This document shows, in pieces, positions 16,101-22,100 of a stretch of 64,000 nt of DNA. The notes under the pieces were generated by a model, which was not told the origin of the DNA, did not search any database, and saw only the letters and a program-made list of their open reading frames with translations. The DNA is from Antedon mediterranea (Eukaryota; Animalia; Echinodermata), in NCBI RefSeq assembly GCF_964355755.1, contig NC_092674.1:558001-622000 (forward strand). Reading direction: 5' to 3'. Made by a program: the position numbers and the translations under genes. Numbering within the stretch: position 1 is the first letter of the stretch; each line of letters opens with the position of its first letter.

Positions 16101-19100
16101 ATGATAGTGATATGACATCAACATGTCCATATATGGGCACATCACATAAAGGTTGACAGAGCTTTAGATGGGACGAAAGAGCCATAAAATTAATTAATAA
16201 AATACAAAAGAATGGTTTACAGTATATTTAGGAAACTACTGTACACGCCATAAAAAAATAATAATAAAAAATACTGTATGTATGTTTAGTAATAATAAAA
16301 CATGTATGGGTCAATTGTCTGTAATACTTACACCACTACCTTCACCTAGCCAATAACTAAGCCAAGTATTGTTGAATGTTAATGCTGCCATCATTAATAA
16401 GTATGAACTTAGCATAAAGATAAACATAAACACTCCGCCCATTGCGTTTATGTATCCACGGAAAGTAACACCCTTGATGGCGCCCTCGGTCTGTACCTCT
16501 TTCTGTATCAACTGACCTGAGTTTGAAGACATAAAATTAAAAATATATTAACTATTTATTTTAATATTATAAAACATTTGTTCATATTTGTCATACTACA
16601 AATATAATTATTATTAAAGAAGAAAAGCCAATTTTTTTTCTCGTAATATTCTTGAAAAGTACGATAAGCAGGTACTGATAAAAACAAGTCATAGAAGAAA
16701 ACAGGTTATATAACTAACACAGTAGAAACAACAACAATTAAACAAGGGCTGCAGTACAATTATGACAATGCTAATAAATTACCAATTTAAAGCATAGTAC
16801 TATCTATAGAAAATAGAGATTCTGTAATTAATTCTTTATGAAAAATTGAATAAACAAAGATGGTAGTTAAACCACAAAAGGTAATAACAAAAAAGAAGCA
16901 TGCAAATTACAATGTACCACCTGTACAACCACCTGGCAAAAAACATGCATAATATCTAAATTTCATGGGTGAATGCAGGTCACAGGTCACATTGTGTGTT
17001 GGGTTTCTAAATTATAAATTCACATCCATGCATAATGGTTACAATGGTGATTAGGGATAAAAAAGTAAAGTTTGGATCAAAAGTGAGTGTAGAGCTTTCA
17101 TTAATAGGAAATTTGGCACAGTAGCATATTGGTTGACATGCTAGCTTTACTAATTTAATAGCAGGGTTCAAATCATTCTGTGGGTGGAAGAAAGATTCAC
17201 TTGAATATCACAGGAGGTTTGCTGTTAGGAGAGAAGACTTGTGAGTAAGGATAGGGTGGGAGCACAGAATACTACTTACCTGTTTCATCAAAGCCATCTA
17301 TGTTATAAGCATTGAAAAAATAATAAGACACTGATTATATTGTTAACCTATAATAGCCTGCTGGCCTATAATAATCAAATGCTAATCATAAGGTGTTACA
17401 TTATCAATACATTGCTATGATGTATGAGATGAGCTAATTTTAGTATTTTTACTACTGGAAATTTTAGTTAATCAATGTCAATGTTTAAATGATTCTGAAA
17501 TTCACTTTTATATTTTAACATTGTAAAATATTTGTAAAAAAAACGTGTGAAGTAATAGAAAAAAAAACAGTGGATAATTAAAAAAAAAACATTGTTGATA
17601 AGAAAGTTATGCTAATTAGATGTTAATAAATAAAAGCTAAAATATGTACTGTATGTAAACATATTAAAAAACACAAGGTTATGTAAAATGATGTTTTACA
17701 TAACTATGTTAAAATAAATGTAATTGTATGGAAATAAAAGTGGGATGAACCCACGTAAGACAAAAAAATAATTGTGAAACGCTAACATACAATTATGATC
17801 AAAGAATTGTGTTTTTTATAAAATTTCTATAAACATTACCTTCATTTTCAGTTTCCATTGACTCATAGCTCTTGCCACTTTTTGATGACATACGACTGAC
17901 ACTACGTTTGAACGAAGCTGATCTTTCTGAACCTATGGAAATTGTCTCGCCATCTTCGTCAAATGCTTCATCCTCCGCTTCCTCTTCCTCGTTCTCCTGC
18001 TTGGCGTGAAACATAGCGATGAGGTTGGCGTATTCACCCTGGGCTGCTATCAGTTCATCATGAGTGCCAACTTCTGCTATATATCCTTCTTTTAAGGTGA
18101 TAACTTGGTCACAATCTTTTAAATACTAAATGAAAAAGAAATCAGAAAATTTGTACAAAATCTGAGTTCAAATTTTACAATTAAACAAATATTTGAAAAA
18201 TGTTGTTAAATTGCGCCCTCAATGTAAGAAAATAACACACTACAGTATTTTATGTATTATAACTTCTAAAACAATGACGTCATTGGTAATTTTATACGTA
18301 CATAAAATCAGGGTACGTAAAACAAATGTTCTACTGTAGTTACCTGAAGTTGATGTGTAACAAACAAAACAGTTTTGTGTTTGAGGGCAGTCTTTATACA
18401 GTTCTGAAATATGTGTTGTCCAACATGAGCATCAACAGCGCTTAATGGATCGTCAAGCAGGTATATATCACGGTCTGCATACAGCGCCCTCGCAAGGCTT
18501 ATTCTTTGCTTCTGACCACCACTTAAGTTTATTCCTCGTTCTCCAATCTAAAGATATCAAATAAAAACAAAGACCATTACTTCAAAATAAAGTATTGTCT
18601 TCTGAATTAATATATGCAATATTTTACCTAATCAAACAGAAAGAAAAAAAATATCACCTCTGTTTCATCGCCATGTGGTAAAATCGTGAGGTCTGGTTTT
18701 AAACTACAAGCAAAAAGAACCATGTCATATTTTTCCTCATCAAATTCTCGGCCAAAAAGAATATTCTCACGCAGAGTTGCGTTGAACATCCAGGCTTCTT
18801 GTGCAGCGTATGCAAATGTGCCGTTAACTAGGCAATCTCCTTCTATGATGTGCATTTGACCCAGAACAGACGCAATTAGAGAGGATTTGCCACTGCCAAC
18901 TGCTCCACAAACACCAGTCAGTTTACCCTGAAAACAGAGAGAAGAACAGACGCAATTAGAGAGGATTTGCCACTGCCAACTGCTCCACAAACACCAGTCA
19001 GTTTACCCTGAAAACAGAGAGAAGTTCAGACGCAATTAGAGAGGATTTGCCACTGCCAACTGCTCCACAAACACCAGTCAGTTTACCCTGAAAACAGAGA

Positions 19101-22100
19101 GAAGAACAGACGCAATTAGAGAGGATTTGCCACTGCCAACTGCTCCACAAACACCAGTCAGTTTACCCTGAAAACAGAGAGAAGATCAGACGCAATTAGA
19201 GAGGATTTGCCACTGCCAACTGCTCCACAAACACCAGTCAGTTTACCCTGAAAACAGAGAGAAGATCAGACGCAATTAGAGAGGATTTGCCACTGCCAAC
19301 TGCTCCAAAAACACCAGTCAGTTTACCCTGAAAACAGAGAGAAGAACAGACGCAATTAGAGAGGATTTGCCACTGCCAACTGCTCCACAAACACCAGTCA
19401 GTTTACCCTGAAAACAGAGAGAAGAACAGACGCAATTAGAGAGGATTTGCCACTGCCAACTGCTCCACAAACACCAGTCAGTTTACCCTGAAAACCGAGA
19501 GAAGATCAGACGCAATTAGAGAGGATTTGCCACTGCCAACTGCTCCACAAACACCAGTCAGTTTACCCTGAAAACAGAGAGAAGATCAGACGCAATTAGA
19601 GAGGATTTGCCACTGCCAACTGCTCCACAAACACCAGTCAGTTTACCCTGAAAACAGAGAGAAGAACAGACGCAATTAGAGAGGATTTGCCACTGCCAAC
19701 TGCTCCACAAACACCAGTCAGTTTACCCTGAAAACAGAGAGAAGAACAGACGCAATTAGAGAGGATTTGCCACTGCCAACTGCTCCACAAACACCAGTCA
19801 GTTTACCCTGAAAACAGAGAGAAGAACAGACGCAATTAGAGAGGATTTGCCACTGCCAACTGCTCCACAAACACCAGTCAGTTTACCCTGAAAACAGAGA
19901 GAAGATCAGACGCAATTAGAGAGGATTTGCCACTGCCAACTGCTCCACAAACACCAGTCAGTTTACCCTGAAAACAGAGAGAAGAACAGACACAATTAGA
20001 GAGGATTTGCCACTGCCAACTGCTCCACAAACACCAGTCAGTTTACCCTGAAAACAGAGAGAAGATAATCTAATTGATGGTTATATGTATGAGAACATAA
20101 GTGTACATTTATTGAATACATATTTGTGTATTCTAATATATATATTTCGATATATTTTATTTAACATACATAAAAACAAATATCATGAATATTGATGCCC
20201 AAAGAGCTGAATTGCAGAAATAATATATAAATCAAATTGACAACATCAAAAGAAGTTTACATTTTCTTCTCTTTGTATAATGACAGCATGCTTAAAGATA
20301 TCATCCAATACAACACTTTTGTCCTCTACCCTAAATGTATGCAACTACATACAGTAAAATAATCAAAGATGTTTAAGTTTACCATTTCAAGATGCAAGTC
20401 AATATTATGAAGAACTTCAGTAACGTCTTCCGTTATAACAGGCAATCTTTCCGGCTTCTTACTTTCTTTAAGAATCTCCTTTAATTCTGTGAACGGTACA
20501 CTGCCTCTTCTATTCACCTTCCTGCCAGACTTTTTACTGACGATAGTTTGGCCATCATTATCAATTTGAAACGAAATATCCTGCGCTGCGGCCGGTTCAT
20601 GGAGTTCTCCGTTCACTTTTGGTCTATAGATGCCATCAGGTTTTTCAGTTTCCGTCTTGTCAGTTTTATCCCATCCTAACGATGCATTTGACATGATTAC
20701 GGCATATTTTGAATCTTTTTGTCCAATATAGTGCAGAGGCTGCATATCATCCATAATAAGGATACTCTAAAATAATACAACATAATAATGATTGTTATGG
20801 CTAAATTCATACAGTAAATAGAGATAGGAGAAAAAACTGAAGAATAGAGATTTGTACTGTAATGTACTGATATTCATACAGTAAATAGAGATTTGTACTA
20901 TAATGTGGGTGCCATATAATTAGACCACCATGGTTTTAAATGAGATTAGCGGTTTGAGAGAAAACTTTGAGCAGGTGAATTATATTATATTATTACATTT
21001 GAATACAACTTGGGAAAATAAATTTGAAAATTACCTTCATTCTTTTGACAGCAATTCCTGCCTCAGCAAGCAGCCTTATAGCCCAAGTAAGAGGTCCCAG
21101 AACAATACGAAGCGTGTATAGCAGCGCCACCAACGTAAACGCCTCTGACGCAGTTATGCTGTTTCCGAATCCGATGTGAATGAGAACACAAACGACAGTT
21201 GCAATATTTGGTGTAATTGGTGCAATTGAGATTGAGATACTCTGCATGTAGCCAGCTTTCTCTAGAGTCTTTTTCTCATCTTGTCTAATTCCTTTAAAAA
21301 AAAACAAGTGTACATTGAAATACTTTGTAGATGCTTTTCATTTACTATAGTTACAAAGAATACAGGTCAGATTTTCATTCTTTATTTTCTTATCATTTAG
21401 TCAACCATTGTATTTACCTGGTACTACTAGCAGATCCAAATATTAAAAGAGAATTCCAAACTGTTCAAACTAAACTACAAATTATGATTATGTGGCTATG
21501 ATGAGGGTCAAGAAGAGGGGGGTCAAGAAGAGGGGGGTCAAGAAGAGGGGGGTCGAGAAGAGGAGGGTCGAGAAGAGGAGGGTCGAGAAGAGGAGGGTCG
21601 AGAAGAGGAGGGTCGAGAAGAGGAGGGTCGAGAAGAGGAGGGTCGAGAAGAGGAGGTTCGAGAAGAGGAGGGTCGAGAAGAGGAGGGTCGAAAAGAGGAG
21701 TGTCAAGAAGAGGAGGGTCAAGAAGAGGAGGGTCAAGAAGAGGAGGGTCAAGAAGAGGAGGGTTGAGTGTCTTTTCTGATAGTTTCGTTTTTTGTCCTAT
21801 AAGAATATTTGAATGTTTCAGTGTGTCTCTTTCATAAGATAATTCTTTTTAAATAAAAGCAATGACTTACCAAGTATAGATTCTGAAAATGGTTTTTCCC
21901 AAGCATACATTTTTAAAAGTTTGACATGATTTAAAAGTTCATTCATTTTCTGTACTCGTTTGTCTGTTATTAGGATTCCTTTCTGACGTATAACAGATGT
22001 TAATTTTCCAAATACAATCTGGAATTAAAATAAATACATTCTGCAACTTGTACAGTGTATAAATGTTGTATTTGTACAGTTTCAGTGTGAACACCTGTCA

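What the first reader, a model, noticed from the sequence alone, without database searches (positions are those of the whole stretch)
18864..20065. Fifteen competing 3' splice sites: the ABCC5 acceptor and Walker A codons tandemly amplified
Seen: the 80-bp unit is about 17 nt of intron end plus about 63 nt of exon encoding [21 protein letters not shown]. The duplication places the coding CTAAT (a branch-point consensus, A at about -29) in front of a strong pyrimidine tract and CAG, so each downstream copy is a complete acceptor. Reading from any of the first 14 acceptors gives ...[14 protein letters not shown], so only the last acceptor (18928-18929) yields an intact NBD1. Each acceptor is also followed after 1 nt by GTAAAC, the same hexamer as the true upstream donor at 20382. 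Copies differ at a few sites (GAAC/GATC/GTTC), which argues that the array is real. Inference: correct splicing must skip 14 near-identical acceptors, presumably through exon definition with the donor at 18657, and leakage would feed NMD.
Basis: partly seen in the sequence, partly recalled or inferred. Interest (0 to 1): 0.82.

Follow-up and report, generated by a model that had tools for sequence, protein, structure and literature searches.

The report
Splice-acceptor 'mirage' minisatellite in feather-star ABCC5
A feather star's ABCC5 transporter gene carries 15 head-to-tail copies of one intron-exon boundary where a close relative has one; only the last copy can give the full protein and the other 14 are likely spliced out as intron, a kind of repeat already described in lancelets and humans.

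Summary
An 80-bp unit spanning the intron 8/exon 9 boundary of a crinoid ABCC5-like gene is repeated 15 times; only the last acceptor keeps the frame. It is not a misassembly: one DNA run gives the unit about 9 times flank word depth, and an RNA-like run of another sample holds the unit-to-unit junction. A related species has one copy and the same splice, so the array is young. Rough word flows put at least about 45% of spliced RNA straight through the last acceptor, and nothing shows use of the spare ones; alleles cannot be told apart, and depth hints at a short second allele. The kind is known: amphioxus 'mirages' (acceptor side, BflGb6), human CBS 844ins68, F7 IVS7. A donor-side mirage lies in a neighbouring gene of this window, and this scan noted similar arrays on other genomes' DNA. 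Best reading: a tolerated by-product of a minisatellite-rich genome, viable because coding sequence likely supplies a new branch point. New member of a known kind; useful as a natural test of 3' splice-site choice.

The parts
18863..20065 (-). Minisatellite, 15 x 80 bp (+3 nt), each unit = 3' end of intron 8 (15-18 nt) + first 62-65 nt of exon 9 (Walker A codons of NBD1)
   Evidence: TRF; unit alignment; breakpoint microhomology
20383..20766 (-). ABCC5 exon 8 (384 nt, phase 0), donor GT at 20382
   Evidence: exact exon chain to P0001; spliced contigs X5 and X10
20048..20065 (-). Acceptor 1, the only one in the original intron context (335 nt from the donor, as in the one-copy state); now out of use if the best explanation holds
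   Evidence: one-copy contig of organism B
19008..19985 (-). Acceptors 2-14, non-productive when read through (stop after 29 codons); each followed after one base by a donor-like GTAAACT that could close an in-frame 81-nt exon
18955..18959 (-). CTAAT of former coding sequence, predicted branch point (A at 18956, -29) of the productive acceptor
   Evidence: sequence and motif scan; function inferred
18928..18945 (-). Acceptor 15, the productive 3' splice site (AG at 18929/18928)
   Evidence: only open frame; P0001 exon chain
18658..18927 (-). ABCC5 exon 9 (270 nt; Walker A and Q-loop region of NBD1), donor GT at 18657
10164..27716 (-). ABCC5-like coding span, 23 exons, 1450 aa (ABC_membrane and ABC_tran, two each)

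Best explanation
A young tandem array of 15 copies of the ABCC5 intron 8/exon 9 boundary, present in this species and single-copy in a close relative, whose first 14 copies are likely removed as part of intron 8 while the last acceptor, next to the intact exon, makes the mRNA. Shown: 15 copies, one open frame, one copy in organism B, the unit junction in a second sample, and a spliced exon 8-exon 9 junction. Inferred: it arose by a microhomology-mediated 80-bp duplication (3-nt TCT) and grew by slippage or unequal exchange; it was viable because the coding CTAAT fell at -29 and gave the last acceptor a new branch point, the old one now lying 1,120 nt upstream; the last site wins because only it is followed by the full exon with its enhancers and downstream donor; any read-through product meets a stop 14 introns before the gene's end and would go to nonsense-mediated decay (established rule, not tested here); the array is likely length-variable and close to neutral.
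For: Real and multi-copy: X3 gives one 110-nt cycle contig at word depth 332.7 against 38.1 in the flank. Second sample: X5 differs from the window at 6 listed exonic places, yet holds a 74-nt contig 18899-18972 with 0 differences, 27 of whose 44 words cannot occur in a one-copy locus; its long contigs break where a cycle predicts (18892, and 29 nt into exon 9). Young: organism B DNA joins 18872 to 19993 (skips exactly 1120 = 14 x 80) and its spliced contig runs unbroken across GT..AG from the same donor (X6, X10). Productive splice: X5 flows 17 (spliced in) + 9.3 (junction) = 26.3 against 26.7 (shared part), leaving about 17 out into exon 9; at least about 45% of spliced flow carries no extra unit, and about 1x unspliced RNA explains the junction. 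Upstream copies look untranslated: 4 of 4 distinct exonic changes alter the residue, against 3 of 11 listed A-B differences in exon 9 (Fisher p 0.026; 1 of 12 differences not listed). Background: 16 hand-picked arrays cover 19% of the window; a crude chance that one of 9 arrays in this gene spans an acceptor is 0.21; a donor-side array of the same kind sits in the FYVE gene of this window. Precedent: distal site favoured in CBS 844ins68 (PMC2630376); mirages do not disturb splicing (PMC3087553, PMC3902484).
Against: No allele-resolved RNA: word depth of the unit in sample S1 equals 11-15 haploid copies against 11.4 expected for one 15-copy allele and 22.9 for two, so a short allele may coexist and could supply all the good mRNA; X5 may be heterozygous or pooled too. 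The same flows allow up to 54% of spliced RNA to keep one unit. All data are de Bruijn contigs, which cannot count units or name the acceptor used, drop rare forms, and whose depths the tool warns are no copy number. Acceptor 1 scores highest and sits at the ancestral distance; introns of this gene are short (median 423 nt), where pairing across the intron could favour it. Organism B evidence comes from one study.
Confidence: 0.72

Rival explanations
1. Leaky or near-null allele: on the array chromosome the spliceosome often takes an upstream acceptor (most likely the first), the product is destroyed by NMD, and a short allele supplies the protein; copy number would then set ABCC5 dosage as a side effect.
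For: Depth hint of a short second allele in S1; acceptor 1 scores highest; unit junction present in RNA-like X5 without any contig of the unique part of intron 8; extra donors of CBS intron 13 and IFI6 arrays are partly used (PMC1557585 passage); Abcc5 knockout mice are healthy and fertile (PMC12470876 passage).
Against: The array stands in two samples of two studies and has had time to gain 5 variant sites, one spread to 6 copies; junction depth needs only about 6% array-retaining RNA; ABCC5 knockdown harms sea-urchin gut formation (PMC12470876).
Confidence: 0.17
2. Incipient new exon and intron: acceptor k pairs with the donor-like GTAAACT one base into copy k+1, giving in-frame 81-nt exons (27 residues, a second Walker A peptide) separated by 79-nt introns.
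For: All 14 such exons are open; the internal donor scores 2.9 against 1.95 for the true donor; the route is described for potato RdRp (PMC4974935) and proposed for mirages (PMC3087553).
Against: This splice adds one G at the junction; the X5 junction contig has 0 differences and 0 gaps, and no insertion is listed (rare forms are dropped). P0001's cluster has 1 member. All 4 exonic changes in the spare copies alter residues, one inside Walker A.
Confidence: 0.05
3. Selected regulatory switch: the spare acceptors are kept to couple ABCC5 level to splicing and NMD by tissue or stage.
For: Only the anatomy: 14 complete acceptors that all end in an early stop.
Against: Absent from organism B; similar arrays arise readily here and in other genomes (AI notes); two copies carry changes that weaken the tract score (5.1, 5.5); no use of spare sites seen.
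Confidence: 0.04
4. Assembly artefact of a single-copy boundary.
For: Near-identical copies; no listed record spans the array; the exact count of 15 is not checked by reads.
Against: About 9-fold word depth of the unit in DNA, junction words in another sample, copy-specific variants.
Confidence: 0.02

Closest known systems
Amphioxus 'mirage' minisatellites: BflGb6 globin (acceptor side, 150-160 bp, 6 and 3 units on two haplotypes), Adh3, troponin C, PGBD5 (PMC3087553 passages; PMC3902484 one passage)
   Same: Tandem copies of the 3' end of an intron plus the 5' part of the next exon, carrying splice signals, high identity between units, regular splicing apparently kept, in a marine deuterostome.
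   Different: More copies (15), shorter unit, 98% alike, in a crinoid; a one-copy sister species dates it; the productive acceptor keeps only 15-18 nt of old intron and so likely uses a branch point from coding sequence. Length variation is only hinted at here.
[quoted passage not shown]
   Same: Duplicated intron-exon junction; the distal site is strongly favoured and normal mRNA is made.
   Different: Two sites, not 15; tested at the bench, whereas this one is not.
Donor-side VNTRs: human F7 IVS7 (37 bp x 5-9), IFI6/6-16 (25 pseudo-sites), CBS intron 13 (15-20), LMNB2 (100 bp x 10-15), PDGF intron 4 (81 bp x 16-18) (PMC1557585 abstract, passages, Discussion)
   Same: Minisatellite that multiplies a splice site to a similar number; the site next to the intact exon is the one used.
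   Different: They multiply 5' sites; this multiplies the 3' site, where scanning from upstream would predict the wrong (first) copy.
Potato RdRp intron gain by duplication of an intron-exon boundary (PMC4974935 abstract, Results and Discussion)
   Same: Duplication across an acceptor with a cryptic donor in the exonic part of the upstream copy.
   Different: There the cryptic donor is used and a new intron is proven by reads; here no such splice was seen.

Membership tests
'Mirage' (boundary-spanning) minisatellites | Tandem repeat whose unit spans an exon-intron boundary of a gene | tested here: met
'Mirage' (boundary-spanning) minisatellites | Units carry the AG/GT splice signal | tested here: met
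   15 of 15 acceptors intact; PWM 5.1-11.0 against a gene median of 8.1
'Mirage' (boundary-spanning) minisatellites | High identity and shared variants among units (turnover within the array) | tested here: met
   98% matches; one variant in 6 of 15 copies
'Mirage' (boundary-spanning) minisatellites | Regular splicing of the host mRNA is kept | tested here: inconclusive
   Spliced junction and flow into exon 9 in X5, a sample with the repeat, but alleles not resolved
'Mirage' (boundary-spanning) minisatellites | Length instability between haplotypes | tested here: inconclusive
   Word depth fits one long plus one short allele, a rough measure; one copy in organism B
Intron gain by tandem duplication (Rogers model, potato RdRp type) | Spliced RNA that uses a donor inside the duplicated stretch | tested here: inconclusive
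   Not seen in the X5 junction contig (0 gaps), but contigs drop rare forms
Recursive-splicing ratchet points (definition recalled) | AG directly followed by GT (zero-length exon), in a very long intron | tested here: not met
   One base lies between AG and GT, and the intron is 1455 nt
ABCC5/MRP5 (host gene) | Two ABC_membrane and two ABC_tran domains, best matches ABCC5 | tested here: met
   no tree was built

The most novel reading that the evidence does not exclude
A segregating splice-site VNTR caught in the act: copy number of the acceptor tunes ABCC5 output through NMD, or the internal donor turns units into in-frame 81-nt exons that duplicate the Walker A peptide, making this an intron gain in progress with a one-copy allele and a one-copy sister species as controls.
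Probability: 0.12. Interest if true: 0.58.

Novelty: new member of a known kind. Interest (0 to 1): 0.24.

Why it matters
As a discovery it is ordinary: the kind is named and found in several animals. Its value is as a ready-made experiment. Fourteen nearly identical, complete 3' splice sites precede the one that must be used, which is the opposite of what scanning from the 5' side predicts; copy-specific variants mark several sites, and a one-copy relative (perhaps also a short allele) gives the control. It extends mirages to crinoids as far as my searches go (0 papers for crinoid + minisatellite + intron; 5 listings, titles and abstract starts only, none on this gene), and shows a case where coding sequence likely became the branch point of a constitutive intron.

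Tried and rejected
No whole genome is held, so no genome-wide count of such arrays was possible. No listed run is on record as RNA; X5 and X10 are treated as RNA only because their contigs are spliced. Only contigs, no raw reads, were offered; 6 of 10 listed runs were laid (X1, X3, X5, X6, X8, X10); parts without cover (copies 2-14 as separate places, the unique part of intron 8 in X5, some flanks in X3) are not read as findings. X8's contig fits one copy but its joint was not among the rows shown. The 61-bp array at 22070-22230 looked like a second acceptor duplication but overlaps no exon; the 99-, 38-, 37- and 48-bp arrays showed no coding junction at their ends by eye. Exon length alone does not exclude acceptor 14. 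Recursive splicing rejected on the one-base offset. Paper searches that gave nothing useful: (0 papers; the Reed and Maniatis 1986 work on duplicated splice sites is recalled only and not relied on). The original Adh3 mirage paper was seen only as cited. Supplements of PMC3087553 (repeat alignments) were not opened; they bear on how alike the BflGb6 units are. No structure was predicted for the 27-residue insertion, since no RNA supports it. Earlier findings near this place or by sequence: none; the 8 shown of 19 for this genome concern exon-cassette receptors, not this kind.
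Full report
What is there. On the minus strand, 18863-20065 is a tandem array of 15.0 copies of an 80-bp unit, 98% alike, without indels. Each unit ends an intron (pyrimidine tract and CAG) and starts an exon with the Walker A codons. 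There are 15 acceptors, 80 bp apart, from 20049/20048 to 18929/18928; joined to the upstream exon, 14 of 15 stop after 29 codons and only the last reads on to the donor at 18657. The host is an ABCC5-like gene: best solved relatives are human ABCC5, and a 1450-residue protein named ABCC5-like of the feather star Antedon mediterranea by its source is 100% identical over the exon and is encoded exactly by 23 exons at 27716-10164, with the array in intron 8 and the last acceptor used. That annotation is a model on this same sequence and no independent proof.

Is it real? Ten public runs were listed, none on record as RNA, all as contigs; six were laid. In X3, DNA of the sample that may be the assembly's source, the unit is one 110-nt contig, the shape of an 80-word cycle, at word depth 332.7 against 38.1 for the flank. 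X5, another sample and study of organism A, has spliced contigs and differs from the window at 6 listed exonic places. It holds a 74-nt contig at 18899-18972 without differences; 27 of its 44 words cannot occur in a one-copy locus. Its long contigs end at 18892 and 29 bases into exon 9, where a cycle must break them. So at least two tandem copies exist in a second animal or pool. The count of 15 itself is not checked: no listed record spans the array.

How old? In organism B (about 95% alike in the exon; one study) a 791-nt DNA contig joins 18872 to 19993, skipping exactly 14 units, and a 5673-nt spliced contig passes unbroken from the same donor into exon 9 (X6, X10). The one-copy intron would be 335 nt. 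One copy is the likely ancestral state (one relative, no outgroup DNA). The breakpoint has a 3-nt microhomology, which fits a slippage-type duplication followed by expansion (inference). Five sites vary among copies, one shared by 6 copies. All 4 distinct exonic changes in the spare copies alter the residue, against 3 of 11 listed differences between A and B in exon 9 (p 0.026; small numbers, 1 of 12 differences not listed), as expected if the spare copies are not translated. The unit's depth equals 11-15 haploid copies against 11.4 expected for one 15-copy allele and 22.9 for two (haploid depth taken from X1 contigs). The tool warns that such depth is no copy number, so this is a hint that a short allele coexists.

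Which acceptor is used? In X5 the spliced contig enters at depth 17, the unit junction has 9.3, their shared part 26.7, which leaves about 17 flowing on into exon 9. If every junction word came from mis-spliced RNA with one extra unit, that would be 54% of spliced flow; at least about 45% goes straight through. If it came from unspliced RNA or from use of acceptor 1, about 1x, or 6%, is enough; X5 does hold intron contigs at 4-5x elsewhere in the gene. Depths are whole-contig means, so these are rough bounds, and they do not separate alleles: a short allele could make the good mRNA. This is the main gap.

How it most likely works. The productive site keeps only 15-18 nt of the old intron; the old branch region now lies 1,120 nt upstream. 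The coding CTAAT lands with its A at -29 and the nearest upstream AG is at -47, while the original acceptor has no yUnAy nearer than -43 and an AG at -24. The duplication thus likely built a complete new 3' site, which would explain why it was survivable (inference). All copies 2-15 share that feature, so it cannot pick the last one; only what follows differs, namely the rest of exon 9 and its donor. Read-through products would stop 14 introns before the end and be NMD substrates (established rule, untested here).

Background. The window is rich in minisatellites (43 TRF rows; 16 hand-picked arrays cover 19%). Of 12 array intervals inside the ABCC5 span only this one overlaps an exon; a crude chance that one of 9 arrays spans an acceptor is 0.21, either junction 0.38. 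A mirror case lies 36 kb away: in a FYVE-domain gene (P0121) the donor at 58015 is the first of 51 CAG|GTAAG copies in a 31-bp array, and the annotated protein uses the first. In both the site next to the intact exon is the annotated one.

What is known. Tandem repeats spanning exon-intron boundaries were named 'mirages' in amphioxus; BflGb6 duplicates the acceptor side with 6 and 3 units on two haplotypes, and RT-PCR suggested regular splicing (PMC3087553, passages; PMC3902484, one passage). I was led to this name by an earlier AI note of this scan and checked the papers. Human CBS 844ins68 duplicates an intron-exon junction and the distal site is favoured (PMC2630376, passage). Donor-side arrays with 5-25 spare sites are known in F7, IFI6, CBS, LMNB2 and PDGF, some with partial use of the nearest spare sites (PMC1557585, abstract, passages and Discussion). 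Potato RdRp shows that such a duplication can create an intron (PMC4974935). ABCC5 loss is mild in mice and harms gut formation in sea-urchin embryos (PMC12470876, passages). The scan's own notes list 8 look-alike arrays in other genomes, 6 on the acceptor side (unchecked, not counted as support).

Verdict. Real, young, and a new member of a known kind; most likely a tolerated passenger (0.72), with a leaky allele (0.17), a new in-frame exon (0.05), a selected switch (0.04) and an artefact (0.02) as rivals. Interest 0.24; up to about 0.58 if copy number proved to set ABCC5 output or to spawn new exons.

Noticed in passing
window 56026-58111, minus strand: Donor-side mirage: a 31-bp x ~64 array starts at the 3' end of a 96-nt exon (58111-58016) of a FYVE-domain gene (P0121) and holds 51 CAG|GTAAG copies; the annotated protein uses the first donor, 58015. 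No RNA was laid there.
   Followed up: partly
window 17280-17297, minus strand: 18-nt microexon in the ABCC5 chain (exon 12), with a weak-scoring acceptor; X5 shows an unspliced contig across it.
   Followed up: no
window 22070-22230, minus strand: Intronic 61-bp x 2.6 array in ABCC5 intron 5 whose units carry a pyrimidine tract and ACAG|GT, decoy acceptors 76-200 nt before the true one; no exon overlap.
   Followed up: partly
window 33231-44021, minus strand: At least three tandem sialyltransferase (Glyco_transf_29) paralogues; one ORF scanned against Pfam.
   Followed up: partly
window 41704-42729, minus strand: Two ORFs that look like pieces of a non-LTR retrotransposon reverse transcriptase (likeness recalled, not scanned).
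   Followed up: no
window 16012-16148 and 22835-22921: Very high-depth interspersed repeat in two ABCC5 introns, shared with organism B; related short motifs recur as 18-21-bp tandem units in the window.
   Followed up: no
window 49613-53651: 99-bp x 41 array inside an intron of the FYVE gene, each unit with a donor-like ATG|GTAAC on the opposite strand; no coding junction seen at its ends.
   Followed up: partly
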